A DNA stretch of 64,000 nucleotides. Source: Planctomycetota bacterium (GTDB lineage: Bacteria; Planctomycetota; UBA1135; UBA2386). Of this stretch, positions 5,904 to 62,551 are shown in pieces. Under the pieces are notes generated by a model that was not told where the DNA came from, ran no database searches, and saw nothing but the letters and a program-made list of their open reading frames with translations. Every line of letters begins with the position of its first letter. The first letter of the stretch is position 1. The stretch spans positions 63,375 through 127,374 of the forward strand of contig JBCCGH010000003.1 in the NCBI GenBank assembly GCA_039029375.1, in the 5' to 3' direction. Made by a program: the position numbers and the translations under genes.

Positions 5904-10528
<4,625 letters not shown>

Positions 10529-10532
<4 letters not shown>

Positions 10533-13984: not shown

Positions 13985-14311
13985 GGTGGGAAAGAAGCAT
14001 CGATAAGGTAGCACGGGGGTGCCGACCCGCGACCTTTCCGATCAAACTGCCGGTCTCACCGAGCACTGGCGGGGCGCCCGTTTCGAGGGCGCGCGGCACG
14101 ACCGCCGCGGCGCGCGAATCCCGCGATGCCGCCGGGTTGCCGGGGACGGGGCGCCGGCCGCCCCAGCCTCGGGGCCCGGCGGCTTGAGCGCCCGCCGCGG
14201 GCCGATGGCGCACGGCGCAGAATCCGCCGCCCACGAACCCGTCCTCCCGGCGACATCGCGGGTTTGCCGCCCCTAACGGTCGCCGAATCGGGAGTAGACT
14301 GTCCCAGACGC

Positions 14312-33286: not shown

Positions 33287-36112
33287 ATGGCAGCCCCCCA
33301 CACGCGCGTGGCCGCGGTCTTCCTCGAAGCCCGATCGCTGGGCGATGACCGCCGTGCCCAGTTCCTGGACCAAGCATGCGTCGCCAATGCGACGCTCCGT
33401 GCCGAAGTCGAGGAGCTCCTCGGTTGGGACCGCACGCGCGCGCCGTTCGACACGCCGATCGATATCCGGTGGGACGCGGTCCACACCGGCGCGGACGGGC
33501 CGCCAGTCCCGACCCGCATCGGCCCCTACGACATCGTCAACGTTCTCGGCACCGGCGGCATGGGCACGGTGTACCGCGCGCGCCAGTCCAATCCCGCGCG
33601 CGACGTGGCCCTCAAGGTGATGCGACCGGGCCTGACGACGCCGTCGCTGGCGCGGCGGTTCGCCATCGAGGCCGACGCCCTCGGCCGCCTGCAGCACGCG
33701 GGGATCGCCCAGATCTACGAGGCGGGCACCGCGGACGACGGTCACGGCCCGCAGCCGTTCTTCGCCATGGAGCTCGTCGAGGGCGACGTGCTCACCAGGT
33801 ACGCCGAACGCCAGAGGCTCGATACGCGCGCGCGGCTCGAGCTGCTGGCCAAGATCGCTCGCGCGGTGCACCACGCGCACCAGAAAGGCGTCGTGCACCG
33901 CGATCTGAAGCCGAGCAACATCCTGGTGACCGCCGCCGGCGAGCCGAAGATCCTCGACTTCGGTGTGGCCCGAGTCACCGACGCGGACGTGGAGGCCGTC
34001 ACGCGGCAAACCGATGCCGGCCAGCTCATCGGCACGCTGCCATACATGAGCCCGGAGCAGGTCGCTGGCACGCCCGACGCAATCGACATCCGCTCCGACG
34101 TCTATGCCCTCGGCGTCATCGGTTATGAGCTCCTCGTCGGCGTGCTGCCGATCGACATCCGCGGCAAGCCCCTGCCCGAGGCGGCGCGCACGATCCAAGA
34201 AGACGTGCCGACTCGACTCAGCTCGGTGGCCCGCACCTACCGAGGCGACATCGACACGATCATCGCCAAGGCCCTCGAGAAGGAACGTCAACGGCGCTAT
34301 CAATCCGCCGACGAGTTGGCCGACGACGTCGAGCGCTTTCTCAAGCACGAGACCATCTCCGCACGGCCACCGACGCTGGGCTATCAAGCGGCGGTCTTCG
34401 CACGCCGCCACAAGGGGCTGGTGGCGGGGCTCGCCGGGGTGGTCATCGCGCTGGCGGGCGGCACGGTGACCAGCACCGCCCTTTACCTGAAGGCCGAAGA
34501 TCAACGCATCGAGGCCGAGCTGAAGCGCGGTGAGGCGGAGACCGCCCGCGCCGCCGAAGAGCGCGCCCGCAACGCGGCCGATGCGGCCCGCGTCGAGGCC
34601 GAGCGGCAGTCGAAGATCGCGCAATCCGTCAACCGCTATCTGACCCATGACCTGATCGCGTCGGTGTCGCCGTCGAGCAACCCGACGATGCGCGAAGTGG
34701 TCGAGGCCGCCGCTGCGAGCCTCGACGAACGGTTCCCCGACGATCCCGCCATCGAGGGCTCGGTGCGCGCGGCGATCGGCCGTACGTTCAAGCGACTCGG
34801 TGACTACGAGAAGGCCGAGCAACATCTGCGGGCGTCGGTCGACGGCCTCATCGCCAGCCTCGGCCCCGAGCACCTCGAGACGGTGCTGGCGATGAACAAC
34901 CTGGGCCTGCTGTATGTGAACCAGCGGCGCCACACGGAAGCCAAGGCGCTGTTGGAACCCGCGGTCGAAGTCGCGGAGCGCGACCTTCCCGCGGATCACC
35001 CCGAGATGCCGACGCTGCTCATGAACCTCGGCGCCGCGTACTCGGGGCTGGGCGAGTTTGCCGAGGCGATGCCGGTGCTGGAACGCGCGCTCGAGCTCGT
35101 GCTGGCGCTGTTCGGTGAGGACAGCGTGGAGACGAGCCGCGCCATGGCAAACCTGGCTTCGGCCGCTGGGCGGGCCGGCGACCGAGACCGGGCGCGCGAG
35201 CTGTTTGAGAAGTGCCTCGCCATCGACCGCTCGCTGTTTGGCGACGACCACTCCGAAACCATCACCGACCTCAACAACCTCGGCGGCTTCTACCTCGACG
35301 AGGGCGACTACGACCGGGCCCGCCCCATGCTCGAGGAAGCGGTGGCGCGGGGCCGCCGGGTGTTCGGCGATCGGCACCCGCTACAGCTGCGGATGCGCGG
35401 CAATCTCGCCAGCATGTACAGCGAGCTCGGCGAGGATGCCCGGGCGGTCGCCATTTACGAGGAGCTCGTCGAGATCAGCCGCGACAGCCTCGGCCCGGAC
35501 GCGGCCATGACCCATTCGCTGATGAACAACCTGGCCGGCACCTACGCCGACTTGGATCGACACGACGAGGCAGAGGCCGCCTACGTCGCGGTGCTCGAAT
35601 CGCGCCGGCGCACGCTCGGTGAGGACCACGTGCAGACCCTGCTGTCGGCGAACAACCTCGGCGCGCACTACCGCAAGCAGGGCGATCTCGACCGCGCTGA
35701 GCCCCTCCTCACCAACGCGAGCGCAGGCTTCGAGCAACGCCTTGGCCCCGACCACCGCCGCACGCTGAGCGCCAAGTCCAACCTCGGCGCCCTGCTGGCG
35801 GACCGCGGTCGTTACGACGAAGCGGCCTCGCTCCTGTCCGGCCTGCTGCCGCCGACGCTGGAAGCGTGGCCCGCGGACCACTGGTATCCGGCCCTGGTGC
35901 GCGCCCGGCTCGGCGTGGCGCTGACCGGCCAGCGCCGATTCAAGGACGCCAAGCGCGAGCTGCTACAGGCCCACGACATCCTCGATGCAGCCCTCGGGAC
36001 CGACCACGACCGCACGGTCCAATGCCGCGGGCACATCGTCTCGCTCTACGAGACCTGGGGGCAGCCCGACGCGGCGGCCCAATGGAGAGAGCGAGGCTCC
36101 GCGCCGCGCTAG
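33287..36112 (+). CDS. Ser/Thr protein kinase with TM segment and C-terminal TPR repeats
   Basis: Kinase motifs: GTGGMGTVY, VALK, HRDLKPSNIL, DFG, PYMSPEQ. TM segment: LVAGLAGVVIALAGGTV. About 8 TPR_10/12-like repeats follow (...MNNLGLLYVNQRRHTEAK...). Confidence 0.95.
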   Translation: MAAPHTRVAAVFLEARSLGDDRRAQFLDQACVANATLRAEVEELLGWDRTRAPFDTPIDIRWDAVHTGADGPPVPTRIGPYDIVNVLGTGGMGTVYRARQSNPARDVALKVMRPGLTTPSLARRFAIEADALGRLQHAGIAQIYEAGTADDGHGPQPFFAMELVEGDVLTRYAERQRLDTRARLELLAKIARAVHHAHQKGVVHRDLKPSNILVTAAGEPKILDFGVARVTDADVEAVTRQTDAGQLIGTLPYMSPEQVAGTPDAIDIRSDVYALGVIGYELLVGVLPIDIRGKPLPEAARTIQEDVPTRLSSVARTYRGDIDTIIAKALEKERQRRYQSADELADDVERFLKHETISARPPTLGYQAAVFARRHKGLVAGLAGVVIALAGGTVTSTALYLKAEDQRIEAELKRGEAETARAAEERARNAADAARVEAERQSKIAQSVNRYLTHDLIASVSPSSNPTMREVVEAAAASLDERFPDDPAIEGSVRAAIGRTFKRLGDYEKAEQHLRASVDGLIASLGPEHLETVLAMNNLGLLYVNQRRHTEAKALLEPAVEVAERDLPADHPEMPTLLMNLGAAYSGLGEFAEAMPVLERALELVLALFGEDSVETSRAMANLASAAGRAGDRDRARELFEKCLAIDRSLFGDDHSETITDLNNLGGFYLDEGDYDRARPMLEEAVARGRRVFGDRHPLQLRMRGNLASMYSELGEDARAVAIYEELVEISRDSLGPDAAMTHSLMNNLAGTYADLDRHDEAEAAYVAVLESRRRTLGEDHVQTLLSANNLGAHYRKQGDLDRAEPLLTNASAGFEQRLGPDHRRTLSAKSNLGALLADRGRYDEAASLLSGLLPPTLEAWPADHWYPALVRARLGVALTGQRRFKDAKRELLQAHDILDAALGTDHDRTVQCRGHIVSLYETWGQPDAAAQWRERGSAPR

Positions 36113-36145
36113 TTCGCACGACCATTGGCGCTGTATGCTGCGCCC

Positions 36146-36673
36146 ATGACCGGGGCCAACGATCCCCTGCTCGAGACCAGGCTCTACGACGAGCTCCGAC
36201 GGATCGCGGCGGGCCACCTCGGCCGAGAACGCGACGACCACACGCTCCAGCCCACGGCGCTGGTGCACGAGGCGTGGGTCAAGCTCGCCAAGCAGCACGA
36301 CGCGCAGATCAACGGTCCGTCCCACTTCTGCGCCGTCGCCAGCCAGGCCATGCGGCGCATCTTGGTCGATCACGCGCGGGGCAGGCACGCGGACAAGCGC
36401 GGCGCGGGCGCCGACCGAGTGACGCTCGCCGCGGTCGACGGTGACGATCTCGCGTCGGGCGCCAACGACCAGCCCGAAGTCCTCGCGCTCGACGGCGCCC
36501 TCGACAAGCTGGCGGCCGTCAGCCGGCGGCAGGCCAAGGTCGTCGAGATGCGCTTCTTTGGCGGGATGAAGATCGAGGAGATCGCCGACGTTCTGGGGGT
36601 CTCGACGCGCACCGTTGACGGCGATTGGCGCGTTGCCCGCGCGTGGCTGCAGCGTGAGATGCATCGCGCCTGA
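36146..36673 (+). CDS. ECF-type sigma-70 factor (kinase-associated, TIGR02999-like)
   Basis: LYDELRRIAAGHLGRERDDHTLQPTALVHEAWVKL; RRILVDHARGRHADKRG; VVEMRFFGGMKIEEIADVLGVSTRTVDGDWRVARAWL. It lies 34 nt downstream of the TPR kinase. Confidence 0.85.
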   Translation: MTGANDPLLETRLYDELRRIAAGHLGRERDDHTLQPTALVHEAWVKLAKQHDAQINGPSHFCAVASQAMRRILVDHARGRHADKRGAGADRVTLAAVDGDDLASGANDQPEVLALDGALDKLAAVSRRQAKVVEMRFFGGMKIEEIADVLGVSTRTVDGDWRVARAWLQREMHRA

Positions 36674-49876: not shown

Positions 49877-52621
49877 ATGAGCGACGCATCGCGGCGCGTG
49901 GCCGTCGACCTGCCGGTCGCCCTTGAGGAGGAGCTCGATCGTGTCCTCGCCGCGGACCCGGACAGCCAGTTCGCGGAACTCGATCGACTATGCGGCAGTC
50001 ACCCCGCCCACGCGCCGTCCATCCGCGCGCGGTTCGCGGACTGCCAGACCTTGGTGCGCCACCTCGACGGCCTCGGTGAGTCGCTGGGTGGCCCGCCGCA
50101 GACGATCGGCCCCTATCGCGTCCTCGATGCACTCGGCGAAGGCGCCATGGGCGACGTCTACCTCGCCGAGCAACGCGAGCCGGTCGTGCATCGCGTGGCG
50201 ATCAAAGTGATGAAGCTCGGCATGGACTCGCGCCGGTTCTTGGCGCGCTTCAACGCCGAACGGCAAGCCCTGGCGCTGATGGAGCACGACTACATCGCCA
50301 AGGTGCTCAACGCCGGGGCCACGGACCGCGGCCGCCCGTACCTGGTGATGGAGTACGTGAAGGGCGTGCCGCTCACCGAGTATTGCGACGCGCAACGCCT
50401 GTCCGTGCGCGAGCGCGTGCAGCTCATACGACAAGTCTGCGCCGGCGTGCAACACGCGCACCAGAAGGGGGTCATCCACCGCGACCTGAAGCCGAGCAAC
50501 ATCTTGGTGACCGTGCAGGGTGACCAGGCCGTGCCCAAGATCATCGACTTTGGCCTCGCGCGAGCCGCCGACCATCGCCTGGCGCGCGGCACGCTGCTGA
50601 CCGAAGAGGGCCACTGGATCGGCACGCTGCCCTACATGAGCCCGGAGCAGGCCGGCACCACGCGGCTCGACATCGATACACGGGCCGATGTGTACGCGCT
50701 CGGGGTCCTGCTCTACGAGCTACTCACCGGCGACCTGCCGCTGCGCCCGGACGACCCGAGCGACTTCGACCGAGTGGAGATGGCGCGACGCATCCGCGAA
50801 GAAGAGCCGGCCAAGCCCAGCTCGCGCGTCGCACACCTCGGCCAGGGGGCGCCCGGCAATGCAACGGCCAGCGCGCTCGCAACGAAGCGGCGCTGCACGC
50901 CGCAAGCCCTGCAACGCCAGCTGCGCGGCGACCTCAACTGGATCACGCTGAAGGCTCTCGAGAAAGACCGCACGCGGCGCTTCGAATCCGCCGACGCCCT
51001 GGCCGCGGCGCTTGGCCACTACCTGCGCGACGAGCCGGTCGGCGTCGGCCCGCCCGCCCGCTGGGGCCGAGTGGTCAAGTTCGTCCGCCGCAACCGGACC
51101 GGCGTGATCGCGGCCGGGCTGCTGGCGGCGACGGTCGTGACCGGTGGCGTCGGCATGACGGTGATTGCCGCGGATCGCGCGCGGGTGCTGCGCGACTACC
51201 GCAACCTCACGATCGGCGGCAAGCTCGATGAGCTCGCGTCGCGAGCGGCAGCCGCGCACCCGCCATGGCCCGATCAGACATCGGAGCTCGGCGAGCTCGT
51301 CGCGACCGCAGAGGAGCTCGTCGCGCAACGAACGACGCTGGAAACCGCGATCGCCGGGTTGCGGCGCGGCCACCAGGGCCCGGAGGGCACCACGCGCCCG
51401 CCGCGCCGCGGTGCCTACGGTGAGAGCGCGCGCCGGGCCAAGCTGGCGCAACTCGTGCAGAAGCTGGACTTCGAGCTCGCCGAGTACGCCGGCGAGCTCC
51501 CCGCCGCGGTGCTGCGCGCCGAGCGCGCGGAGCGCGACCGCATCGCCGACGTCGAGGCCGCGCTGCGCGTGCGCGCGGCCGAATCGGCGCGGGTCGAGCG
51601 GCCCGACGCGGACCTGCAGTTCTTGCACGACCGCCTGGAGAACCTGCTGGGACGCCTGCGCGTGGTGCACGGCGAGCTGCTGCCAGACCTGCGCTGGCGC
51701 CTCGACTGGTCGCGGCGAATCCGCGCCGAGTCGGTCGACGCCTACCGTGACGCCTGGGCGCAGGCGCGCCGCGAGGTGGAGCAGACGCCAGCTTATCGGG
51801 GACTCACGCTCGCGCCACAGATCGGGTTGGTGCCCCTGGGCGCCGACCCCGACAGCGGGCTCCAGGAGTTCGCGCACCGGGCGTCGGGGACGGTCCCGAC
51901 ACGCGGTGCGGGCAGCCGCCTCGAGCTCAACCAAGAGCACGGCATCGTGTTCGTGCTGCTGCCGCCTGGCGTCGTCCACTTCGGCCGCGGCAAGAGCTCC
52001 GACCCCACCCGGCCGCCGCCGCACGGACGCTACGACGCGCTCGAGATCGAGGCGGTGTTGATGGCCAAGCACGAGCTGAGCCGAGCGCAGTGGGCCCGGC
52101 TGGCGCGCGGCCGGTCCGGCCTACAGCTCCGCGAGACCGCCGCCGATCTCCGCAACCGATCGGGGAAGCAGCTTGCCAAGCCAATGAACGTCGTGAGCTG
52201 GTTTGCTGCCGTGCGCCTCCTGGACGAGTATGGGCTGACCCTCCCGCGCGAGGCCGAATGGGAGTACGCCTGCAAGGCCGGCCGGGAGACGCGGTGGCAC
52301 TACGGGGACGACACCGTGACCCTTCAAGACGCGGCGAACGTGCGCTTCGACGGCATGGGAAGCAGGCGCCCTCTGCTACCGGTCTTCGCGCCGCTGCGGC
52401 CCAATGCCTTTGGCCTCCTGCACATGCACGGCAACGTCTGGGAGTGGTGCCGAGACCTCCGCGGCGAACCCACCGGTGACCATCGGGCGCTGCGCGGGGG
52501 CTCTTGGCAGCGGCCGCCGGGTGTCGCCGAGACGACGTATCGCAACAGCGCGACCCCAGACGTCGTCGTGCGCGAGTATGGACTGCGCGCCGCGCGCGCG
52601 TTGCGGCCGGAGTCGCGGTGA
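49877..52621 (+). CDS. Receptor Ser/Thr protein kinase with TM, long coiled coil and C-terminal SUMF1/FGE-type domain
   Basis: Kinase motifs: GEGAMGDVY, VAIK, HRDLKPSNIL, DFG, PYMSPEQ. TM segment: VIAAGLLAATVVTGGVGMTVIAA. A helical region of about 300 aa follows. FGE domain: EWEYACKAG...GLLHMHGNVWEWCRD...LRGGSW...YRNS...YGLRAARAL. The start lies 10 nt after the ELW gene stop. Confidence 0.92.
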   Translation: MSDASRRVAVDLPVALEEELDRVLAADPDSQFAELDRLCGSHPAHAPSIRARFADCQTLVRHLDGLGESLGGPPQTIGPYRVLDALGEGAMGDVYLAEQREPVVHRVAIKVMKLGMDSRRFLARFNAERQALALMEHDYIAKVLNAGATDRGRPYLVMEYVKGVPLTEYCDAQRLSVRERVQLIRQVCAGVQHAHQKGVIHRDLKPSNILVTVQGDQAVPKIIDFGLARAADHRLARGTLLTEEGHWIGTLPYMSPEQAGTTRLDIDTRADVYALGVLLYELLTGDLPLRPDDPSDFDRVEMARRIREEEPAKPSSRVAHLGQGAPGNATASALATKRRCTPQALQRQLRGDLNWITLKALEKDRTRRFESADALAAALGHYLRDEPVGVGPPARWGRVVKFVRRNRTGVIAAGLLAATVVTGGVGMTVIAADRARVLRDYRNLTIGGKLDELASRAAAAHPPWPDQTSELGELVATAEELVAQRTTLETAIAGLRRGHQGPEGTTRPPRRGAYGESARRAKLAQLVQKLDFELAEYAGELPAAVLRAERAERDRIADVEAALRVRAAESARVERPDADLQFLHDRLENLLGRLRVVHGELLPDLRWRLDWSRRIRAESVDAYRDAWAQARREVEQTPAYRGLTLAPQIGLVPLGADPDSGLQEFAHRASGTVPTRGAGSRLELNQEHGIVFVLLPPGVVHFGRGKSSDPTRPPPHGRYDALEIEAVLMAKHELSRAQWARLARGRSGLQLRETAADLRNRSGKQLAKPMNVVSWFAAVRLLDEYGLTLPREAEWEYACKAGRETRWHYGDDTVTLQDAANVRFDGMGSRRPLLPVFAPLRPNAFGLLHMHGNVWEWCRDLRGEPTGDHRALRGGSWQRPPGVAETTYRNSATPDVVVREYGLRAARALRPESR

Positions 52622-55860: not shown

Positions 55861-56025
55861 CACGACCTCGTCGTACCCGGCGCCGCGGCGGGGCGAGGCC
55901 CGCGGCGCGTTCTCCGTGTGTTCACCGAGACGGCCGTGAACGCGACGGGAATCCGGGAAACCTCGGATCACCTTGCCGTCGTGCAAGGGCCGAGCGCCGC
56001 CGGGCGGCGCCCAACGGCGGGCTGA

Positions 56026-57132
56026 CTACTTGAGCTTCTCCCAGTAGTCCTCGGGCATGTCGTGCGCGATCTTCAGCGCACCGTTCGCGCCGCCGTAGAT
56101 CGGCTCCTCGATCCGCATCACCTTGCCGCCGCCGAGGTCCCGCTTCATGCAGTCCTCGATCGCGCGGTCCAGGCCCTTGATCAGCGAGCCACCGCCCGCG
56201 AGCAAGACGCGCTGGCGCAGCCGCTCCTGGAACTCCGGGTCGAACGACGAGATCAGCGTGTTGATGCCGTCGACGATCGGCTGCACCAGGATGTTGCAGG
56301 CGTTGCGGATGTGCTCCGACAGATCAAACTCGGTCGGCTTGCCGTTCACCGGCAGCTCGACCATGCACCGCTCGCCGGCCTCGCCGAGGTACGAGTAGCG
56401 CTCCTTGATGTCCTTGATCATCTGCACGGTGTACTGCGCGCCCGTGCAGTGCTCGGTGATCAGCTTGGCCAGCTCCTTGTCGACCGCATCGCCGGCGGCC
56501 GTCGTGGTGATCTGGTCGGTCTCCTCCGGCATGGTGCCGTGCATCCGGCACAAGTCGGTGGTGCCGGCGCCGATGTCCACGACCAGCACGTCCTCGAGCA
56601 TGTCGAGGCCGTAGGCGACCGCGAACGGCTCACTGCACAACATCACCGAATCGACCGTCTCACGCGCCGCCTCGATGATCGCCTCCTTGTTGCGAATCGA
56701 GGCCTGCGCCGGCGCGCCGATCACGCAGTAGACGAGCTCGTCCTTGCGCGCCTTGGCCATGTCGATCGCCGCGCTAATCAAGTCGCGCGCCGCCTTCACG
56801 TTCCGCTGCGCTTCCGCGTCGGCCGAGCCGTTGTCGCTGTGCTTCAGAACGCCGTGCTGCAGCGGCTGGTAGTAGTCGAGCGATAGACGCTTTTCCATCG
56901 CCTCCTTGCCGTACAGCACATCCTTGCGCAGCAGCTTGCGGCTAACCACGTCCTTGGGATAACCGACGACCGAGAACATCGATTCGCGCACGCCGTTACT
57001 CGCGGAGACCGCGGTGCGCGACGTGCCAAGATCCATACCGATGTAGAGGACGCCGTGATCTTTCTGCGTCGCATCCGGGGCGGTGGCGGGTGCTCCCATG
57101 CCCGAGTCTTCCATGTCTTCCATGTTCTCCAT
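56026..57132 (-). CDS. MamK-like actin-family ATPase
   Basis: GMDLGTSRTAVSASNG; SVVGYPKDVVS; YYQPLQHGVL; VIGAPAQAS; LVVDIGAGTTDLC; VLLAGGGSLIKGLDRAIE; ends ...MPEDYWEKLK. It is collinear with MamK as I remember it. A GGGAGA RBS lies 8 nt upstream. Confidence 0.8.
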   Translation of the reverse strand: MENMEDMEDSGMGAPATAPDATQKDHGVLYIGMDLGTSRTAVSASNGVRESMFSVVGYPKDVVSRKLLRKDVLYGKEAMEKRLSLDYYQPLQHGVLKHSDNGSADAEAQRNVKAARDLISAAIDMAKARKDELVYCVIGAPAQASIRNKEAIIEAARETVDSVMLCSEPFAVAYGLDMLEDVLVVDIGAGTTDLCRMHGTMPEETDQITTTAAGDAVDKELAKLITEHCTGAQYTVQMIKDIKERYSYLGEAGERCMVELPVNGKPTEFDLSEHIRNACNILVQPIVDGINTLISSFDPEFQERLRQRVLLAGGGSLIKGLDRAIEDCMKRDLGGGKVMRIEEPIYGGANGALKIAHDMPEDYWEKLK

Positions 57133-57194
57133 GGTTCTAGGTCTCCCTCAACGCTTGCTTTCTTGAGTTCTACTGACGGGCCACCCACCTGAGT

Positions 57195-57998
57195 TCACGA
57201 AGGCGCCGCCTCCGTCTCGCCCTTTTGGAGCGCCAAATTCGCCTTGAAGAGGTCAGACATCAGCTCCCGCTTCCGCTCGACGTGGCCGTCGCCTTCGTCC
57301 AAACCTTGGACGTCGCGGTAAATCGAGGAGATGCCGGGGTCGACGTCCTTCAGGCTCGCCACCTGGACCAGCTTCTTCTCGGTGGTGGCCAACGAGCTGG
57401 TGAGCTTGGCGATGCGCCGCTGGAGGCGTTCAACCTCGCTGTCTTGCGCCGCCGTGTGGGCCTCCATCGTCGCCTTGCGCTGGTTGCCGACCAGGTCCAT
57501 GACCAGCGCCAGCGTCTGCTCGCGCAGGGTTGGCAGGTCGGCGCTATCGGAGTTGGCGAGCTCGGTGAAGAGCTCCTGGACGCGCATGGCGATCTCGACG
57601 TTCTCGCCCTCGTGCTGGGCCCGAAAATCCAGCTCGCCTTCGGCCAAGCGCTCGCGCAGCGCCTGCTTCTGCTCCTCGAGCTCGCGACGCATCGTGTCGA
57701 GCTCGCCCTCGACCGCTTGCTTCTGCTTGAGCGCCTCGTCGCGCGAACGCACCAGCTCCTTGTTGCTCTTCAGCAGCCGCAGGAACTCCTCGGTGGTCTC
57801 GCCGGCAATCTGGGCACGGTCCAGCCCCATGAGCTTGTGCCGCAGGCTGCGGTGAACCGCCTCCTCCATGAGCGCCACGATGCGGTCCAGGCCAACGACG
57901 CGAACGTTGTTGACGCCGCGCTTCTTCAGCTGGTCGACCGAAGTGCTGTAGGCGAGCTTCTTGACCGTCTCGCGCAGGCTCTTGCCGATCGTACCCAT
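57195..57998 (-). CDS. Coiled-coil protein of unknown function
   Basis: A 267-aa protein with long heptad-like stretches (EALKQKQAVEGELDTMRRELEEQKQALRERLAEGE; EVERLQRRIAKLTSSLATTEKKLVQV). The ATG directly abuts the stop of the upstream ATPase gene. Confidence 0.7.
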   Translation of the reverse strand: MGTIGKSLRETVKKLAYSTSVDQLKKRGVNNVRVVGLDRIVALMEEAVHRSLRHKLMGLDRAQIAGETTEEFLRLLKSNKELVRSRDEALKQKQAVEGELDTMRRELEEQKQALRERLAEGELDFRAQHEGENVEIAMRVQELFTELANSDSADLPTLREQTLALVMDLVGNQRKATMEAHTAAQDSEVERLQRRIAKLTSSLATTEKKLVQVASLKDVDPGISSIYRDVQGLDEGDGHVERKRELMSDLFKANLALQKGETEAAPS

Positions 57999-58763
57999 CT
58001 AGAAGTCCTCTTCGCTGGCGAACCGAGGGTCGACGTCCGGGTTCAGGCCGCGCACCTCGGTGACAAACGTGCCGAGCACGTTGGCGCCGAGGTCACTCAG
58101 ATTCTTGATCGCCTCTCGCGTTAGCGACTTCGACGAATGCTCGAGCCGAACCACCACCAAACTGCCGTCGGCCCGCGCGGCCATCACGCTGGCATCGGTC
58201 GCGGGTAGGGCAGGGGGGGTGTCGACGATCACGTACTGGAAGCGCTCCTTGAGACGGGCGAACAGCTCCTCGATCCGAGGCGCGGTGATCAGCTCAGAGG
58301 GGCCGGTCAGCCGCGTTCCCGCCCCCATGATGGAGAGGTTGCGCAGCCCCGACTCCCGGATCGCCCGCTCCAGCCCGACGCGTCCCAACAGAACGTCGGA
58401 CAACCCGGCCTCAGGGTTGAGGTTCAAGTGATTCTCCACGGAGGGCGCCCGCAGGTCGCCATCGACGAGGAGAGCCGGCATGCGCTCCAGCTCGGCGAAC
58501 GCCAACGCCAGGTTGATGGCGGTGATCGTCTTCCCCTCGTTGCGAATCGCCGAGGTGATCACGAGGCTCTTGGAGGCGCCGTCGGGGTTCATCGCCTCGA
58601 GCTTGTTCCGGAGGCTGCGGAACTGCTCGGCGCGGAAACCGGCGGGATCGTGCACCATGACCACGAACGGGTGCACGGCACGGTCCACCACGAGGAGCAT
58701 GTCCTCGCTGACCTGGACTTCGACCTGCTCGTCGTCGGGTTTGCGCGACCGGAATACCGGCAT
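57999..58763 (-). CDS. BY-kinase-like (CpsD/Wzc catalytic-domain type) P-loop ATPase lacking a C-terminal Tyr cluster
   Basis: Walker A is VITSAIRNEGKT, Walker A' is ALLVDGDLRAPS and Walker B is YVIVDTPP. The C-terminus ...GLNPDVDPRFASEEDF has no tyrosines. There is no TM segment. Confidence 0.8.
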   Translation of the reverse strand: MPVFRSRKPDDEQVEVQVSEDMLLVVDRAVHPFVVMVHDPAGFRAEQFRSLRNKLEAMNPDGASKSLVITSAIRNEGKTITAINLALAFAELERMPALLVDGDLRAPSVENHLNLNPEAGLSDVLLGRVGLERAIRESGLRNLSIMGAGTRLTGPSELITAPRIEELFARLKERFQYVIVDTPPALPATDASVMAARADGSLVVVRLEHSSKSLTREAIKNLSDLGANVLGTFVTEVRGLNPDVDPRFASEEDF

Positions 58764-59111
58764 GAAAAGCGACCTCGGGGCGCCTGACCCCGGTCAAGGT
58801 ATCGGAACAAACCGGGCCCGAGCCCCTGCCGTGGGGCCCAAAAGGCGGGGGAGCGTGGCGATGGCGCGGCCGGAGTGCGGCCGTGTGGCCCACCCAAACC
58901 ACCGTTCCGACCCCAACTCTTACCGGGCCGCGGCGGCTAGCGCAACCGGGTCAGGCGCACGCAGGCCCCTTGCCGAGGCGGACTTGGCGCCGTCCGGGGG
59001 TCCCCGACCGACGGCTCAGGGGGCCCCCCGACGCCAGGCCGCCTGCGACCGCAGAGGGCGGTCCGACAACCGCTTCCTGGGCCCTGGTTGCCGAGGTGGC
59101 AGGCCGCGCGA

Positions 59112-59145
59112 AAGCGGTGGTTTTTGTCGCGGCACCGTACGGCCG
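59112..59145. repeat. Partial copy of inverted-repeat element B (right-arm orientation)
   Basis: cggtggtttttgtcgcggcaccgtacggccg matches 15761-15791 with 1 mismatch. Confidence 0.8.
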
Positions 59146-59169
59146 TTTCCGAATTCGGGATCGACGCCG

Positions 59170-59180
59170 CCCCCCCCCCC
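59170..59180. repeat. Poly-C homopolymer (11 nt) in a divergent intergenic region
   Basis: The tract c(11) lies between the start of the ATPase/coiled-coil/actin operon (58763, minus strand) and GTG 59204 (plus strand). Confidence 0.9.
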
Positions 59181-59203
59181 TCAACCGATCCAAGGAAACT
59201 CCA

Positions 59204-60637
59204 GTGAAGCGCTGGTTGCCCCGGTTCCCTGCACGCAGTGCGCGCGTCTCGGCGACGGTCGCGTCGGCCTTGCTGCTCGGCGTCGTCGCCGTCGCGCAAG
59301 ACCCTCCGCTGCGCACGATCCCGAACTTGGTCATGCGGCCCCAGCTCGGCCACCCCAAGTACCGACTCGTGTGGGTACGCAGTGGGTACAGCGGAACAGA
59401 GAACAGCGTCCCGTCGCCGCACCGCACGAGCGAGAGGTCTATGAGCGGCCACGCGCCGCTCGCACGAACCAACGCCTACAATGCCGCCATGCCCCACCGT
59501 GTTTGCAGCTCTCTCATCGCGCTGCTGACCGCAGCAACGGCCCACGCACAGACGACCTGGATCGTCGCCGAGGGCGGCGGTCCCGGCGTCGAGTTCCGCC
59601 GCATCCAGGACGCGCTGGACGAGGCAGCGGACGGCGACACCATTGTGGTCCGCGCGGGGAGCTACCCCGAGTTCAGGCTCAGCACGAGCAAGGGCGTCCT
59701 GATTGCCGGCGAACCCGGCGCCATCGTTGGCACCGCGGGTGGTGTGTTCTTCGAGGTCACCGATCTCGTCGCGGGCCGCACGTTCTCGATGCGCAACCTC
59801 TCCTTTACCGCCGGCGCCACGCAGATCCTGTTCCAGGACTGCGCCGGACAGGTCTACGTGGAGAAGGTCGACGTCTTCCAAGCCACGGTGTCGAACTCGT
59901 TCGCCATCAACAACTGCGCGCAGATCTCGCTGACCCAAGTCGCCACGACCGGGCTGCCCGCCATGAGGGTGACCAACAGCAAGGTAGTCTTCGCCGACTG
60001 CCGAATCCGGGCGACGCCGTGGCTCACGACCTTCCCCGCCCTCACCGTCACCAACTCCGAGACGACCATGGTCGACGGCCTCTTTGCCGGCGGCTCCTCG
60101 TCCTTTGCCACGCCCCCAGCGGCGGCGATCCACATGAGCGGCGGCACCCTGACGCTGGCGGGTCGCAACACCTCGGTGACGGCCGGATCGCCGGGCACAC
60201 CGACGCCCACGCCAGCCGTGCTTGCCACCGGTGGCGAGGTGTTCATCGATCCAGCGGTGACCCTGGTGAGCCAGGGCGGTGCGGCGCCGATCAGCGGCGG
60301 TGCCGCAGTCACCAGGGGGCCGATCGCCTCGGTGCGCGCGGATGGACTCCAGTCGCAGGGGACGTGGCAGCTCGACCTCCACGCCCCGACGGGCAGCCCC
60401 TTCTGCCTGTTCGCCAGCCTGCCGCGCCCGGCGCTCGCGAGCCCTTGGGGCGCGGTCTGGTTTGACCTGAGGCTGCACGCCGTGCTGGCCTGCGGCGCGG
60501 TCGGGCCGAACGACCAGTTCCAGATGTCGGTGCCCCTGCCGATGCTGCCGCGGGCCGTGCCCCTCGTCGCGCAGGCGGCCGTCGTCACGCCGGTCGGGCC
60601 GCAGATCTCAACGCCATCGGTCGACATCGTCGAGTAG
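59204..60637 (+). CDS. Secreted parallel-beta-helix-like protein with the shared C-terminal domain (paralog 2 of 3), with an N-terminal extension
   Basis: The paralog-equivalent start is ATG 59489 (MPHRVCSSLIALLTAATAHAQTTWIVAEGGGPGVEF...GDTIVVRAGSY). However, 59204-59488 is open in the same frame and has high third-position GC. An AAGGA RBS precedes GTG 59204. The extension carries its own signal-like VKRWLPRFPARSARVSATVASALLLGVVAVAQ. Confidence 0.65.
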   Translation: MKRWLPRFPARSARVSATVASALLLGVVAVAQDPPLRTIPNLVMRPQLGHPKYRLVWVRSGYSGTENSVPSPHRTSERSMSGHAPLARTNAYNAAMPHRVCSSLIALLTAATAHAQTTWIVAEGGGPGVEFRRIQDALDEAADGDTIVVRAGSYPEFRLSTSKGVLIAGEPGAIVGTAGGVFFEVTDLVAGRTFSMRNLSFTAGATQILFQDCAGQVYVEKVDVFQATVSNSFAINNCAQISLTQVATTGLPAMRVTNSKVVFADCRIRATPWLTTFPALTVTNSETTMVDGLFAGGSSSFATPPAAAIHMSGGTLTLAGRNTSVTAGSPGTPTPTPAVLATGGEVFIDPAVTLVSQGGAAPISGGAAVTRGPIASVRADGLQSQGTWQLDLHAPTGSPFCLFASLPRPALASPWGAVWFDLRLHAVLACGAVGPNDQFQMSVPLPMLPRAVPLVAQAAVVTPVGPQISTPSVDIVE

Positions 60638-60733: not shown

Positions 60734-61063
60734 GTGAACCGTCAGAAGCGAGCGATGCGTCGATCCCTACCGTCCCTCATGGCTTTGGGCCTCGTGAGTC
60801 TGGGCCTCTTCACGCTGCCCAGCTGCGTCTTCACCAACACCGTCATCCCCCTCGATACCGACGTGCAGAGCACGGATCTCGGCACCAAGGTCGGCGAGGC
60901 CAGCAACCAAAGCGTCGCCTGGCTCGTGGCGTGGGGTGATGGCGGCATGCAGGCGGCGGCCAAGGAAGGCGGCATCACGACAATGAAGCACGCCGACCTG
61001 CGCGTGCTCAACGTGCTGTTCGGGCTCTACACCCGCACCACCACGATCGTGTACGGAAACTAG
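60734..61063 (+). CDS. TRL-like small lipoprotein
   Basis: Lipobox: GLFTLPSC. The C-terminus ...GGITTMKHADLRVLNVLFGLYTRTTTIVYGN is typical of the TRL-like family as I recall it. Confidence 0.6.
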   Translation: MNRQKRAMRRSLPSLMALGLVSLGLFTLPSCVFTNTVIPLDTDVQSTDLGTKVGEASNQSVAWLVAWGDGGMQAAAKEGGITTMKHADLRVLNVLFGLYTRTTTIVYGN

Positions 61064-61066
61064 GCC

Positions 61067-61372
61067 GTGCGTCGCTTCCTCGGCCTTGGACTCCTCGCGT
61101 GCGTCGCTGTACTCCCGAGCTGCGGTTTCGTGTACACGCACGTGACCGAACCCTTGGACGTCAACCTCAACGAAACTCCCGTCTTTGCCGGCGAAGGCGC
61201 CCAGGGCGACACCAAACAAATCCGCTACCAGGTGTCGATCGAGTGGGACCGCAACGGCATCGGCGACATCGCCAAGCAGCACGGCCTCACCACGGTGCAC
61301 TACGCCGACCTGACCACGCTGACCGTGCTCGGCATCTGGAACCAGCGCTTCGTGACCGTCTACGGCGAGTAG
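61067..61372 (+). CDS. TRL-like small lipoprotein (tandem paralog)
   Basis: Lipobox: AVLPSC. The C-terminus is ...HGLTTVHYADLTTLTVLGIWNQRFVTVYGE. It starts 3 nt after the previous stop. Confidence 0.6.
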   Translation: MRRFLGLGLLACVAVLPSCGFVYTHVTEPLDVNLNETPVFAGEGAQGDTKQIRYQVSIEWDRNGIGDIAKQHGLTTVHYADLTTLTVLGIWNQRFVTVYGE

Positions 61373-61377
61373 TGATG

Positions 61378-61408
61378 CGGCCGTACGGTGCCGCGTTCAA
61401 CCGACCGG
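61378..61408. repeat. Degenerate copy of inverted-repeat element B (left-arm orientation)
   Basis: cggccgtacggtgccgcg is the exact reverse complement of 59128-59145. The following ttcaaccgaccgg resembles ...aaaaccgccgg of the 15638 arm. Confidence 0.6.
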
Positions 61409-62551
61409 CGGGCCGTCGAGCACCAGCACCAGCGGCGGCGTGAGCTCGAGCGCGCTGCCGGCGAGCACCACGCCCTGGAACGCAAACGGAGTCCCGCGCG
61501 GATAGATCGCGCTAATGGGCAGTGAGAGATCGAGCACGCCGCTCGGTGGCACCGTGCCAAACGGCAGCGCGACGTGCAGGCTCGGATCGATCCACAGGGC
61601 GCCGAACGGCAGGGCGATCGGCGTGTGGGGAAGGCTCGCCAGGAGCACCGCTGAGGCGCCCACCGGGCCATGCAGCGACCACGACAGGACGCCACCGGGC
61701 GGGGCCGTGTCGCCGACGAGGGCCGCGATCGGCCGCGTGGTGAATGGTGCCGCAATCCCGCCAGTCTCGACCACCGCCGGATCCAAAACGATCGCGCCGC
61801 CGAACGCCCGAATCGCCGGCGCTTGGAACGAGCAGCCGAACGTCGTCGACTCTTGCGAGCCGCCAATGAGCTCGGTGACCGGCCCCGTCGCGACCAAACT
61901 CGAATCGGTGAGATCGACCGCGGGCTGCGTCGCTGCGAGCTGCGCGCAGGGCAGTACTTGCAGGATGCCTGGCGCACCGCGCAGCACGCTGTCGACCACC
62001 GTGATCGAGGAGCGGTTCGCCACGAGAGCCGGGTGCGAACTTGGCACCAGCAGCTGGGTGGCCTCCAGATCGACGCCGTTGAGCACCAGGTTGCTCGCCG
62101 ACGCCGTGATCCCGGTCGGCGAGCGCAGACGGCTGTCGTGCACGCTCACCTGCGCACTGCGGATGACGGAGACCGCTCGATCCCGCACCGTATCGGTCCG
62201 CATGCCGTCGATGAGCACCGGGCCCGCCGAGTCGATCACCGTGATCGGCGCGTCGAGCCCGCGGAGCACGACGCGCTGTCCGGCAGGCAAACCTCGCACG
62301 GCGATGGAGAACTCGAACTGCGGCACCCCGCCGTCGCCGAGCACGGTGAGAGCTTTGGTGATGACAGCCGGGTCGTAAGCACCGGGGCGCACCAGGATCG
62401 TGTCACCCGCGGCAGCCACGTTGACCGCTTCGGCGAACTCGGTGAACTGCACTCCGGGCCCCCCGCCAGCAGCGACGACCCACGTCTGTTGTGCAACCAC
62501 TGGGAGGGCGAACAGCGCCAAGGCGCACGGGAGCAGCAGAGCGCGGAGCAT
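61397..62551 (-). CDS. Secreted parallel-beta-helix-like protein with the shared C-terminal domain (paralog 3 of 3)
   Basis: Signal peptide: MLRALLLPCALALFALPVVAQ. The segment QTWVVAAGGGPGVQFTEFAEAVNVAAAGDTILVRPGAY is shared with the paralogs. The C-terminus is ...LLASLPHTPIALPFGALWIDP...FAFQGVVLAG.... Confidence 0.75.
   Translation of the reverse strand: MLRALLLPCALALFALPVVAQQTWVVAAGGGPGVQFTEFAEAVNVAAAGDTILVRPGAYDPAVITKALTVLGDGGVPQFEFSIAVRGLPAGQRVVLRGLDAPITVIDSAGPVLIDGMRTDTVRDRAVSVIRSAQVSVHDSRLRSPTGITASASNLVLNGVDLEATQLLVPSSHPALVANRSSITVVDSVLRGAPGILQVLPCAQLAATQPAVDLTDSSLVATGPVTELIGGSQESTTFGCSFQAPAIRAFGGAIVLDPAVVETGGIAAPFTTRPIAALVGDTAPPGGVLSWSLHGPVGASAVLLASLPHTPIALPFGALWIDPSLHVALPFGTVPPSGVLDLSLPISAIYPRGTPFAFQGVVLAGSALELTPPLVLVLDGPPVG

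What the first reader, a model, noticed from the sequence alone, without database searches (positions are those of the whole stretch)
56026..58763. BY-kinase/MinD-like ATPase + coiled-coil protein + MamK-like actin operon with no magnetosome context
A minus-strand operon runs from 58763 to 56026.

Gene 1 has the CpsD/Wzc-type P-loop set (Walker A NEGKT, A' LLVDGDLRAP, B YVIVDTPP). It ends ...PRFASEEDF with no Tyr cluster. No membrane activator gene is adjacent.

The stop of gene 1 (57999-58001) directly abuts the ATG (57996-57998) of gene 2, a 267-aa coiled-coil protein.

Gene 3 has its own GGGAGA RBS. It is an actin-fold ATPase whose motifs follow MamK rather than MreB as I remember them (GMDLGTSRTAV, VVGYPKDV, YQPLQHGVL, VDIGAGTTDLC, LLAGGGSLIKGL, ...PEDYWEKL).

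None of the other magnetosome gene types (CDF transporters, HtrA-like proteases, MamA-like TPR, MamI/L/Q) is in the 64 kb.

A filament former, a coiled-coil adaptor and a deviant P-loop ATPase together follow the logic of positioning or segregation machines such as ParMRC, MamK-MamJ and PomXYZ. I cannot assign this trio to a described system.
Basis: partly seen in the sequence, partly recalled or inferred. Interest (0 to 1): 0.85.

Follow-up and report, generated by a model that had tools for sequence, protein, structure and literature searches.

The report
Conserved actin–adaptor–ATPase operon in Planctomycetota
A MamK-type bacterial actin, probably the "saltatorellin" of the shape-shifting, FtsZ-less Saltatorellus/OM190 planctomycetes, is encoded in a conserved three-gene operon with an uncharacterised coiled-coil partner and a tyrosine-kinase-like ATPase, which gives concrete candidates for what controls this orphan cytoskeleton.

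Summary
Three minus-strand genes at 58763-56026 encode a BY-kinase-type P-loop ATPase (254 aa), an all-helical coiled-coil protein of no known family (267 aa) and a MamK-family actin (368 aa).

There are no magnetosome genes and no polysaccharide export genes in the 64 kb.

The trio is not an accident. Of 71 species-level genomes with enough upstream sequence, 66 keep the same three genes in the same order, while the flanking genes differ. The three genes diverge congruently (r 0.83-0.86).

The deeper core is the coiled-coil gene plus the actin. That pair persists without the ATPase in lineages where actin identity falls to 50-65%. In five loci a degenerate GGDEF domain fused to the coiled-coil protein's C-terminal module replaces the ATPase and the protein's N-terminal part.

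BeeR loci (80 examined) have neither partner.

The actin is not new as a protein. It is very probably the orthologue of "saltatorellin", a MamK-like actin shown to form filaments heterologously in a 2019 preprint; its partners were not described there.

Best reading: a chromosomal actin filament with a dedicated adaptor and an exchangeable nucleotide-dependent input module. Its cellular role is inferred, not shown.

The parts
57999..58763 (-). g1: cytoplasmic BY-kinase-type P-loop ATPase (254 aa). It has Walker A (A71-T79, SAIRNEGKT), Walker A' (LLVDGDLRAP), Walker B (YVIVDTPP) and the ExxRxxR ring-interface motif (E46-R52). It has no C-terminal Tyr cluster and no transmembrane segment.
   Evidence: NCBIfam TIGR01007 126.6 bits (cutoff 108) and Pfam AAA_31. 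Best PDB matches are CapB, BceF, VpsO, Etk and Wzc (E 4e-28 to 1e-17); MinD reaches only 41 bits. Motif conservation in 63 orthologues. Maximum Kyte-Doolittle hydropathy over 19 residues is 1.31.
57195..57998 (-). g2: coiled-coil partner protein (267 aa) of an undescribed family. It has a conserved N-module (about residues 8-60), a variable-length central coiled coil (one predicted helix, 37-148) and a conserved C-module (about residues 185-259, with the motif ..RRIxKLxxxLxxTE..GIxSIYRxVQGL..K..LM..IFxANLxLQ).
   Evidence: No Pfam, NCBIfam or PADLOC family. 191 homologues, all hypothetical. AlphaFold2 pLDDT 73.9, all-helical. No Foldseek PDB hit at E < 1. The profile against PDB gives only compositional apolipoprotein matches to the central region. 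Module conservation.
56026..57132 (-). g3: MamK-family actin-like ATPase (368 aa), a probable saltatorellin orthologue. It has a variable acidic N-terminal extension (residues 1-23) ahead of the invariant KDHGVLYIGMDLGTS. The phosphate-1 (DLGTS), phosphate-2 (DIGAGTTD), adenosine (GGGS) and catalytic SEPF motifs are invariant.
   Evidence: NCBIfam NF040964 MamK 409.7 bits (cutoff 400); BeeR 202.9 (cutoff 530); MreB 59-68 (cutoffs 293-366). PDB MamK 5ljw 262 bits, BeeR 8r2n 127 bits. Invariant columns. NJ tree. Saltatorellin link.
57133..57194 (-). 62-nt g2-g3 spacer containing a GAGGGAGA Shine-Dalgarno-like element 9 nt upstream of the g3 ATG.
   Evidence: Read directly from the sequence.
55995..56019 (-). 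GC-rich hairpin (11-bp stem) immediately after the g3 stop codon, with no T tract. It is a possible end of the transcription unit.
   Evidence: RNA fold of 55960-56030 gives -37.3 kcal/mol, z = -1.89, with 8 of 200 shuffles folding as well. The terminator scan did not pick it up. Weak evidence.

Best explanation
This is a self-contained chromosomal operon for an actin-based cytoskeletal system. It belongs to the Saltatorellus/OM190 lineage of Planctomycetota, which is FtsZ-less, has about 70% GC and is non-magnetotactic.

The actin (g3) is a MamK-family, saltatorellin-type protein that polymerises with ATP into filaments. The coiled-coil protein (g2) is its dedicated partner, an adaptor or regulator. 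Its conserved terminal modules are held apart by a coiled-coil spacer of variable length. The BY-kinase-type ATPase (g1) is translationally coupled to g2 and supplies a nucleotide-dependent regulatory input. It could work by tyrosine phosphorylation of g2, of g3 or of its own single tail tyrosine, or as an ATP-driven oligomeric switch. A sister sub-clade uses a degenerate GGDEF domain fused to the g2 C-module in its place.

Shown here: gene content, motif integrity, conserved order, co-divergence, the modular swap, and the absence of magnetosome and polysaccharide contexts.

Taken from the literature: filament formation by the S. ferox homologue.

Inferred: physical contacts between g2 and the actin and between g1 and g2; the direction of regulation; and the cellular role. 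The role is most plausibly cell-shape change, budding/fission or intracellular positioning in cells that also keep MreB.
For: (1) Family assignments come.

(2) 410 species-level genomes encode a close relative of the actin. Of 71 retrieved loci with at least 1.75 kb upstream, 66 have g1-g2-g3 colinear on one strand with short spacers (median 36 and 72 nt between aligned ends), and 5 have the variant.

(3) None of the window's flanking genes is conserved in any locus. The neighbours that recur elsewhere (hutH/hutU, HAD hydrolase, secretin, ExbBD, TPR) are absent from the window. The trio is therefore the only constant unit.

(4) Pairwise distance matrices of the three genes correlate at r = 0.83-0.86 over 55 taxa.

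(5) A g2-like gene lies directly upstream of the actin, without g1, in more distant lineages. These are L165 (E 1.5e-49), L168 (3.5e-42), L161 (a 168-aa mini version that keeps only the N- and C-modules, 2e-25) and L163 (2e-17).

(6) In L073, L074, L078 and L079 a degenerate GGDEF domain (Pfam E 1e-13 to 1e-16 in the two scored) is fused to the coiled coil plus the g2 C-module, and g1 is absent.

(7) The actin's ATP-binding and catalytic motifs are invariant across 23 orthologues at 75% mean identity.

(8) In g1 the Walker A, A' and B motifs and ExxRxxR are conserved in all 63 orthologues.

(9) The S. ferox MamK-like actin forms filaments in E. coli and in an M. gryphiswaldense delta-mamK strain. 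The isolates lack FtsZ and keep MreB (bioRxiv 10.1101/817700).

(10) Lineage link. The Saltatorellus clade has 70% GC (PMC11032199) and the window has 0.70. The isolates fall in SILVA OM190. The CL500-15 MAG L061 carries the trio, and CL500-15 is in OM190 (PMC5607371). The cloning primer encodes ...YWEQLK*, which is the consensus C-terminus of this clade.
Against: No physical interaction, localisation or phenotype data exist for g1 or g2.

I also do not know whether the three isolates carry g1 and g2.

Some related actins have neither partner (L162, L164, L167), so the actin can work without them.

The g2 N-module is retained where g1 is absent, so no part of g2 can be assigned as a g1 docking site.

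g1 passes the BY-kinase domain model, so an independent role in polysaccharide regulation elsewhere in the genome cannot be excluded from 64 kb.

Part of the conserved synteny reflects shared ancestry within one lineage. The loci are 80 species of one clade, not 80 independent events.
Confidence: 0.62

Rival explanations
1. The operon is a fragment or relic of a magnetosome gene cluster. The actin would be a true MamK that positions magnetosomes, with the other mam genes lying elsewhere in the genome.
For: The actin scores just above the NCBIfam MamK cutoff (409.7 against 400). Its closest solved relative is magnetosome MamK. Metagenomic studies suggest that magnetotactic bacteria may exist in Planctomycetes (PMC12748827).
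Against: The 64 kb contains no CDF transporter, HtrA/PDZ protease, MamA, MamI/L/Q or similar gene, and the Pfam-scanned flanking genes of related loci show none either. On the NJ tree the clade sits apart from the branch holding AMB-1 MamK, AMB-1 MamK-like and the fosmid MamK CAX83788, at 40% identity. The family occurs in 410 species genomes. The cultured Saltatorellus-clade isolates carrying the homologue are not described as magnetotactic.
Confidence: 0.02
2. g1 is an ordinary BY-kinase that regulates exopolysaccharide synthesis or export. On this view its position next to the actin genes reflects inherited gene order and no shared function.
For: g1 passes the BY-kinase domain model TIGR01007 and most resembles CapB, BceF, VpsO and Wzc. 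OM190 members are often associated with particles or exopolymer (PMC5607371).
Against: The window has no Wzz/CapA-type activator, Wza, Wzb/Cps phosphatase, flippase, polymerase or glycosyltransferase. The tyrosine cluster is absent. The g1 stop abuts the g2 start. The g1-g2-g3 order survives in 66 of 71 loci while all other neighbours change. g1 co-diverges with g2 and g3. Where g1 is missing, another signalling domain is fused to g2 in its place.
Confidence: 0.06
3. The genes form a type II (ParMRC-like) DNA segregation system. The actin would push DNA apart, g2 would be the ParR-like centromere-binding adaptor, and g1 an accessory ATPase.
For: The operon logic is similar: an adaptor gene next to a filament-forming actin. 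MamK-family filaments are cytomotive (background cited).
Against: g2 shows no ribbon-helix-helix or HTH domain by Pfam, NCBIfam, AlphaFold2 or Foldseek. No iterated centromere-like repeats lie upstream of, or between, the genes. ParM and Alp7A models score far below cutoff. The loci are chromosomal, on contigs of 2-8 Mb.
Confidence: 0.07
4. The actin and g2 are a pair, but g1 acts as a ParA/MinD-style ATP-dependent dimer that patterns them on the nucleoid or membrane, in a PomXYZ- or MinCDE-like positioning system. It would not act as a kinase.
For: g1 belongs to the same P-loop superfamily, with weak MinD and ParA hits.
Against: The deviant Walker A signature lysine is missing (SAIRNEGKT against SGKGGVGKT). 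There is no C-terminal amphipathic membrane-targeting helix. MinD and ParA models score 21-46 bits against cutoffs of 180-213. The BY-kinase-specific A' DxDxR motif and the ExxRxxR ring motif are conserved instead.
Confidence: 0.08

Closest known systems
Saltatorellin (MamK-like actin of Saltatorellus ferox Poly30, Engelhardtia mirabilis Pla133 and Rohdeia mirabilis Pla163; Wiegand et al. 2019, bioRxiv 10.1101/817700)
   Same: It is a MamK-like actin in a non-magnetotactic, FtsZ-less, roughly 70% GC planctomycetal lineage (SILVA OM190). The C-terminus encoded by the published primer (...YWEQLK*) equals this clade's consensus, and the N-terminus has the same MTD-type acidic extension. Heterologous filament formation has been shown.
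   Different: The preprint describes only the actin; its text contains no mention of a tyrosine kinase or a coiled-coil partner. I could not compare the S. ferox sequence or locus directly, so orthology, and the presence of g1 and g2 in the isolates, are probable but unverified.
MamK with its partners (MamJ, MamY and McaA/McaB in Magnetospirillum; Mad coiled-coil proteins and Mad28 in deep-branching magnetotactic bacteria, PMC12748827)
   Same: Same actin family (40% identity to AMB-1 MamK; NCBIfam MamK cutoff passed). The logic is also the same: an actin filament working with coiled-coil or adaptor proteins encoded nearby.
   Different: There is no magnetosome gene cluster and a different branch of the family tree. 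g2 matches no NCBIfam or Pfam family, so no relationship to a catalogued magnetosome protein was detected. No BY-kinase-type ATPase is part of the described magnetoskeleton, to my knowledge.
BeeR (Verrucomicrobiota three-stranded tubular actin, PMC11929497; PDB 8r2n)
   Same: It is a MamK-related actin of the PVC superphylum, found in non-magnetotactic bacteria, with a disordered N-terminal extension and unknown function.
   Different: Identity is only 30%, and the BeeR model scores 202.9 against a cutoff of 530. None of 80 BeeR loci has a g1- or g2-like gene within 8 kb.
Firmicute-type BY-kinases (CapB/CapA, PtkA/TkmA) and Wzc/Etk
   Same: g1 has the catalytic domain with Walker A, A' and B, and the ExxRxxR oligomerisation motif. 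Like CapB and PtkA it is a stand-alone cytoplasmic protein. From my own knowledge, PtkA is known to use alternative cytoplasmic modulators (MinD, SalA).
   Different: g1 has no C-terminal tyrosine cluster (none in the window's copy, one in most orthologues), no adjacent transmembrane activator and no polysaccharide locus. Its conserved partner is a soluble coiled-coil protein followed by an actin.
ParMRC, AlfAB and Alp7AR type II partition systems
   Same: They are small operons that pair an actin-like filament former with a dedicated adaptor gene.
   Different: Here the adaptor lies upstream and is a long coiled coil with no detectable DNA-binding fold. There are no centromere repeats, the loci are chromosomal, and the actin is not of the ParM or Alp families.

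Membership tests
MamK family (NCBIfam NF040964) | Whole-protein HMM score at or above the curated cutoff (400 bits) | tested here: met
   409.7 bits, E 8e-123, model positions 1-330 of 335. This is only just above the cutoff.
MamK (magnetosome actin, in the functional sense) | Encoded within or beside a magnetosome gene cluster (mamAB-type genes) | tested here: not met
   No mam-type domains in any credible gene of the 64 kb, nor among the Pfam-scanned flanking genes of related loci.
MamK (magnetosome actin, in the functional sense) | Groups phylogenetically with MamK proteins of magnetotactic bacteria | tested here: not met
   On the NJ tree the window's clade is separate from the branch holding AMB-1 MamK, AMB-1 MamK-like (P0347) and CAX83788 (P0280). 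Identity to AMB-1 MamK is 40%. There is no bootstrap, so deep branch order is unreliable.
Saltatorellin | Orthology to the S. ferox Poly30 MamK-like protein | tested here: inconclusive
   The S. ferox sequence could not be retrieved. The primer-encoded C-terminus YWEQLK* matches the clade consensus (25 of 120 exact; the window has YWEKLK). GC content and OM190 affiliation are consistent.
Saltatorellin | Forms filaments | not testable with these tools
   Shown only for the S. ferox protein in heterologous hosts. Here the nucleotide-binding and catalytic motifs are invariant.
MreB | HMM score above the curated cutoff (TIGR00904 365.75; PRK13927 293) | tested here: not met
   59.4 and 68.1 bits. 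PDB MreB matches are 47 bits or less.
BeeR (NCBIfam NF053558) | HMM score above the cutoff (530) | tested here: not met
   202.9 bits; 30% identity to 8r2n.
BY-kinase (bacterial tyrosine kinase) | Catalytic domain with Walker A, A' (DxDxR) and B motifs; domain HMM above cutoff | tested here: met
   TIGR01007 scores 126.6 against 108. The motifs are conserved in all 63 orthologues.
BY-kinase (bacterial tyrosine kinase) | ExxRxxR motif of the oligomeric ring interface | tested here: met
   EQFRSLR at residues 46-52, with E, R and R conserved in the orthologues. That this motif forms the ring interface comes from my own knowledge of the CapB, Etk and Wzc structures.
BY-kinase (bacterial tyrosine kinase) | C-terminal tyrosine cluster for autophosphorylation | tested here: not met
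   The last 25 residues of the window's copy contain no Tyr. Among 63 orthologues, 54 have one Tyr, 7 have two and 2 have none.
BY-kinase (bacterial tyrosine kinase) | Transmembrane activator (a fused Wzz-like domain or an adjacent CapA/TkmA-type gene) and a polysaccharide locus | tested here: not met
   g1 has no transmembrane segment. The adjacent gene is a soluble coiled coil. There are no Wzz, Wza or glycosyltransferase genes in the window.
BY-kinase (bacterial tyrosine kinase) | Tyrosine kinase activity | not testable with these tools
   Needs a biochemical assay.
ParA/MinD ATPases | Deviant Walker A with the signature lysine (xKGGxxK[ST]); HMM above cutoff | tested here: not met
   SAIRNEGKT lacks the signature Lys. 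minD_arch scores 45.8 against 201.75, minD_bact 39.7 against 212.9 and ParA_partition 21 against 180.
ParMRC-type partition system | ParM/Alp-type actin, a DNA-binding adaptor and centromere repeats | tested here: not met
   ParM scores 15.8 against 417. g2 has no DNA-binding domain. No iterons were found.

The most novel reading that the evidence does not exclude
The trio is the control module of the saltatorellin cytoskeleton that drives shape-shifting, pseudopod-like protrusion and the switch between budding and fission in FtsZ-less Saltatorellus/OM190 bacteria. The coiled-coil protein would couple actin filaments to a cellular site. A BY-kinase that has lost its autophosphorylation cluster would regulate a bacterial actin or its adaptor by tyrosine phosphorylation. 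In a sister lineage a degenerate GGDEF domain, fused to the adaptor in place of g1, would provide the input instead. This would be the first case of bacterial actin dynamics under kinase or second-messenger control.
Probability: 0.15. Interest if true: 0.9.

Novelty: new variant of a known kind. Interest (0 to 1): 0.6.

Why it matters
Saltatorellin and BeeR are MamK-related actins of the PVC superphylum that form filaments but have no known partners or function. The saltatorellin lineage is the one reported to change shape, crawl, fuse and divide without FtsZ.

Two things make the question of what this actin does experimentally approachable. First, the actin is locked in an operon with a dedicated, previously unrecognised coiled-coil protein across lineages whose actins are only 50-65% identical to the window's. 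Second, the upstream input is modular: a BY-kinase-type ATPase or a degenerate GGDEF domain.

This yields two named candidate partners, defined conserved modules to mutate, and a natural 'domain swap' experiment.

It also extends the repertoire of BY-kinase-like ATPases beyond polysaccharide control, and it defines a new protein family (the g2 family, currently without any model in Pfam or NCBIfam).

It does not reveal a new kind of machine. Actin-plus-adaptor operons are a known design.

Tried and rejected
(1) BeeR connection. I rebuilt BeeR residues 35-384 from the PDB alignment, fetched 80 BeeR loci and searched them with g1 and g2 HMMs. There were no hits, so the idea was rejected.

(2) 'Rosetta stone' fusions. 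The 500-1232-aa proteins with a C-terminal MamK-like actin (P0244-P0260) have N-terminal coiled coils and acidic linkers, but none matches g1 or g2. This gave no support.

(3) The g2 N-module as a g1-specific docking site. Rejected, because the N-module persists in loci that lack g1.

(4) Fold search with the g2 model. Only generic coiled coils came back (Smc, Vipp1) at E > 1. The profile against PDB and Pfam gave only compositional apolipoprotein hits.

(5) Anti-phage defence system. There were no meaningful PADLOC hits.

(6) Centromere-like repeats, sigma-70 promoters and canonical terminators. None exceeded chance.

(7) rRNA, tRNA or other RNA markers to place the window taxonomically. None were found.

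(8) The S. ferox saltatorellin gene itself.

(9) AlphaFold complex prediction by the linker trick. I did not attempt it. The tool returns no PAE or contacts, and it accepts only window sequences or database proteins, so the result could not have been interpreted.

Full report
THE OBSERVATION

The three minus-strand ORFs exist exactly as described: g1 at 57999-58763 (254 aa), g2 at 57195-57998 (267 aa) and g3 at 56026-57132 (368 aa). In this 70% GC window they have the third-position GC of genuine genes (0.88-0.92). The g1 TAG stop abuts the g2 ATG in the same frame. A GAGGGAGA element sits 9 nt before the g3 ATG. A GC-rich hairpin follows the g3 stop.

WHAT THE THREE PROTEINS ARE

g3 matches the NCBIfam MamK subfamily model at 409.7 bits, just above its cutoff of 400. 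It falls far below the cutoffs for BeeR (202.9 against 530) and for MreB, FtsA, PilM and ParM. Its best solved relative is Magnetospirillum MamK (262 bits). BeeR follows at 127 bits and MreB at 47 or less. NCBI already labels this exact protein 'MAG: MamK family actin-like protein [Planctomycetota bacterium]'.

g1 passes the BY-kinase catalytic-domain model (TIGR01007, 126.6 against 108). It most resembles the stand-alone cytoplasmic kinases CapB, BceF and VpsO and the kinase domains of Etk and Wzc. It keeps Walker A, A' and B and the ExxRxxR motif. It has no tyrosine cluster: the window's tail has no Tyr, and most orthologues have exactly one, in a conserved R-L-A-Y context. It lacks the ParA/MinD signature lysine, and MinD/ParA models score far below cutoff, so the 'MinD-like' label does not fit.

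g2 matches nothing in Pfam, NCBIfam or PADLOC. AlphaFold2 (pLDDT 74) predicts an all-helical protein with one continuous 112-residue helix. Neither Foldseek nor a profile search of PDB sequences finds anything beyond generic or compositional coiled-coil matches. None of the three proteins has a transmembrane segment.

CONTEXT IN THE WINDOW

I scanned every credible gene of the 64 kb against Pfam. There are no magnetosome-type genes and no Wzz, Wza, Wzx, Wzy or glycosyltransferase genes. The neighbourhood holds Ser/Thr kinases, ECF sigma factors, a sulfatase, a PKS-NRPS pair and secreted proteins of unknown family. That content is typical of Planctomycetota. No iterated centromere-like repeats flank the operon.

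IS THE TRIO REAL?

A scan of one genome per species found relatives of the actin in 410 genomes, and I examined the best 80 loci.

- Of the 71 loci with at least 1.75 kb upstream of the actin, 66 carry g1, g2 and g3 in the same order and strand, with short spacers.
- Median identities to the window are 59% for g1, 48% for g2 and 72% for g3.
- None of the window's other genes is conserved in any of these loci.
- The neighbours that recur in other lineages are hutH/hutU upstream and, convergent downstream, a HAD hydrolase, a secretin, ExbB/ExbD and TPR proteins. All are absent from this window.
- The trio is therefore the only constant unit. Its three genes diverge congruently, with distance-matrix correlations of 0.83-0.86.

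One caution applies: these loci belong to one lineage, so they are not independent events.

THE DEEPER CORE AND THE MODULAR INPUT

First, five loci lack g1. In four of them (L073, L074, L078, L079) the gene upstream of the actin is an ORF of 342-462 aa (the longest is probably over-extended at its start). It consists of an N-terminal GGDEF domain with a degenerate active-site motif, then a coiled coil, then the conserved C-terminal module of g2.

Second, I sampled actins only 50-65% identical to the window's. A g2-like gene lies directly upstream of the actin, without any g1, in L165, L168, L163 and L161. In L161 it is a 168-residue 'mini' version that keeps only the conserved N- and C-modules. 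Three other sampled loci have neither partner.

The evolutionary core is thus the g2-actin pair. g1, or alternatively a GGDEF domain, is an add-on input. The g2 N-module is retained where g1 is absent, so I withdrew my interim idea that it is the g1 docking site.

RELATION TO OTHER ACTINS

An exhaustive HMMER search of 1.84 billion cluster representatives found 1,048 relatives, 176 of them at E < 1e-30. On a neighbour-joining tree the window's protein sits in a tight Planctomycetota clade. That clade lies inside the broad MamK-like radiation. It is separate from the branch holding AMB-1 MamK, the AMB-1 MamK-like protein and a fosmid-derived 'Magnetosome protein MamK'. BeeR and MreB lie outside. 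The tree has no support values, so only the clade separation should be trusted.

I tested whether BeeR, a published orphan actin of Verrucomicrobiota, shares the partners. None of 80 BeeR loci has a g1- or g2-like gene within 8 kb.

THE LITERATURE LINK THAT CHANGES THE NOVELTY CALL

A 2019 preprint (bioRxiv 10.1101/817700) describes 'saltatorellin'. It is a MamK-like actin of Saltatorellus ferox, Engelhardtia mirabilis and Rohdeia mirabilis. These bacteria change shape, crawl, fuse, and divide by either budding or fission. They lack FtsZ but keep MreB. An mCherry fusion forms filaments in E. coli and in an M. gryphiswaldense mamK mutant.

Several lines tie the window to this clade:

- Its GC is 70%, as reported for Saltatorellus genomes (PMC11032199).
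- The isolates fall in SILVA class OM190 (preprint Table S6). One trio-bearing locus, L061, comes from a MAG labelled CL500-15, a clade assigned to OM190 (PMC5607371).
- Several loci carry 'Brocadiaceae' labels. I read these as misassignments, since published phylogenies disagree on where the Saltatorellus clade sits relative to Brocadiales.
- The published reverse primer encodes ...YWEQLK*, the consensus C-terminus of this clade. The forward primer encodes an MTD-type acidic N-terminus like those seen here.

I could not obtain the S. ferox sequence, so orthology is probable, not proven. The preprint's text mentions neither a tyrosine kinase nor a coiled-coil partner. The only other paper in the library that uses the name adds nothing on partners.

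MECHANISM

Shown here: intact ATP-binding and catalytic motifs in the actin; an intact BY-kinase catalytic and oligomerisation apparatus without the autophosphorylation cluster in g1; a two-module coiled-coil protein that stays with the actin; translational abutment of g1 and g2; and substitution of g1 by a degenerate GGDEF domain.

Inferred: g2 binds the filament through its conserved modules, with the C-module as prime candidate because it survives every rearrangement. It then links or regulates the filament. g1 supplies an ATP-dependent input, either as a tyrosine kinase acting on g2, on the actin or on its own single tail tyrosine, or as an oligomeric switch. g2 may replace the missing membrane activator.

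The cellular role (shape change, division or positioning) is speculation guided by the biology of the cultured relatives.

I give the general model a confidence of 0.62. The rivals score 0.02 (magnetosome relic), 0.06 (ordinary polysaccharide BY-kinase with incidental linkage), 0.07 (ParMRC-like DNA segregation) and 0.08 (ParA/MinD-style patterning).

VERDICT

The actin is a known, named, partly characterised protein family member. The operon design, an actin plus an adaptor, is a known kind. What is new is the identity of the partners, the new g2 family, the modular BY-kinase/GGDEF input, and a BY-kinase-like ATPase recruited to a cytoskeletal operon. I rate it a new variant of a known kind, with interest 0.6.

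Noticed in passing
window 23559-25223 (-): A histidine kinase (HisKA + HATPase_c) with an N-terminal Arf/small-GTPase-like domain (Pfam Arf 31.6 bits). This is an unusual sensor architecture.
   Followed up: no
window 49877-52621 (+) and 33287-36673 (+): A Ser/Thr kinase fused to an FGE-sulfatase (formylglycine-generating-enzyme-like) domain. A second Ser/Thr kinase with a long TPR array is followed directly by an ECF sigma factor.
   Followed up: no
window 5904-15688: A PKS (KS-AT-KR-ACP, 1542 aa) and an NRPS (C-A-T, 1161 aa) lie in tandem on the minus strand, next to a divergent radical SAM/SPASM enzyme. This is probably a small hybrid biosynthetic cluster.
   Followed up: no
window 58883-60637 (+) and 61397-62551 (-); also 60734-61372 (+): Two paralogous secreted proteins of no known family share a 'TW(I/V)VAxGGGPGVxF...GDTI(V/L)VRxGxY' N-terminal region. 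They bracket two tandem TRL-like small proteins immediately upstream of the operon. None of these genes is conserved next to the trio in other genomes.
   Followed up: partly
window 57106-57123 (-): A perfect 9-nt tandem duplication (ATGGAAGAC twice) lies at the 5' end of the actin gene and encodes MED-MED within the variable acidic N-terminal extension. It suggests the extension's length evolves by slippage.
   Followed up: no
P0244-P0260, not in the window: A family of 500-1232-aa proteins from AT-rich uncultured organisms. Each has an N-terminal coiled coil ('KKDRFREWTKSLGE..'), a very long acidic or Pro-rich low-complexity linker, a basic patch and a C-terminal MamK-like actin domain (45-49% identical to the window's). 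In effect these are actins with a built-in MamJ-like tail. They do not match g1 or g2.
   Followed up: partly
P0280 (CAX83788.1): An FtsZ (Tubulin + FtsZ_C) domain fused to a MamK actin domain in a single 768-aa protein, annotated 'Magnetosome protein MamK' from an uncultured bacterium.
   Followed up: no
L161:2498-13056 (MAG labelled Nitrosomonadaceae): The 168-aa mini g2 and its actin (50% identical to the window's) lie inside a longer same-strand run of unannotated genes. The run includes a 546-aa protein and one of more than 2123 aa, so this may be a larger, different actin-associated system. The taxonomic label may be a binning error.
   Followed up: no
L001:9080-16995 and about 30-50 other loci: A convergent cluster of a HAD hydrolase, an approximately 850-aa secretin, ExbB/ExbD and TPR proteins lies immediately downstream of the trio in many genomes of the clade. 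It is missing from this window. I cannot say whether this is just conserved gene order or a functional neighbour.
   Followed up: partly
L162:6001-8303: In a more distant Planctomycetes MamK-like locus (42% identity) the actin has no g2 and is followed by an FHA-domain protein. This is another possible link between phospho-signalling and an actin.
   Followed up: no
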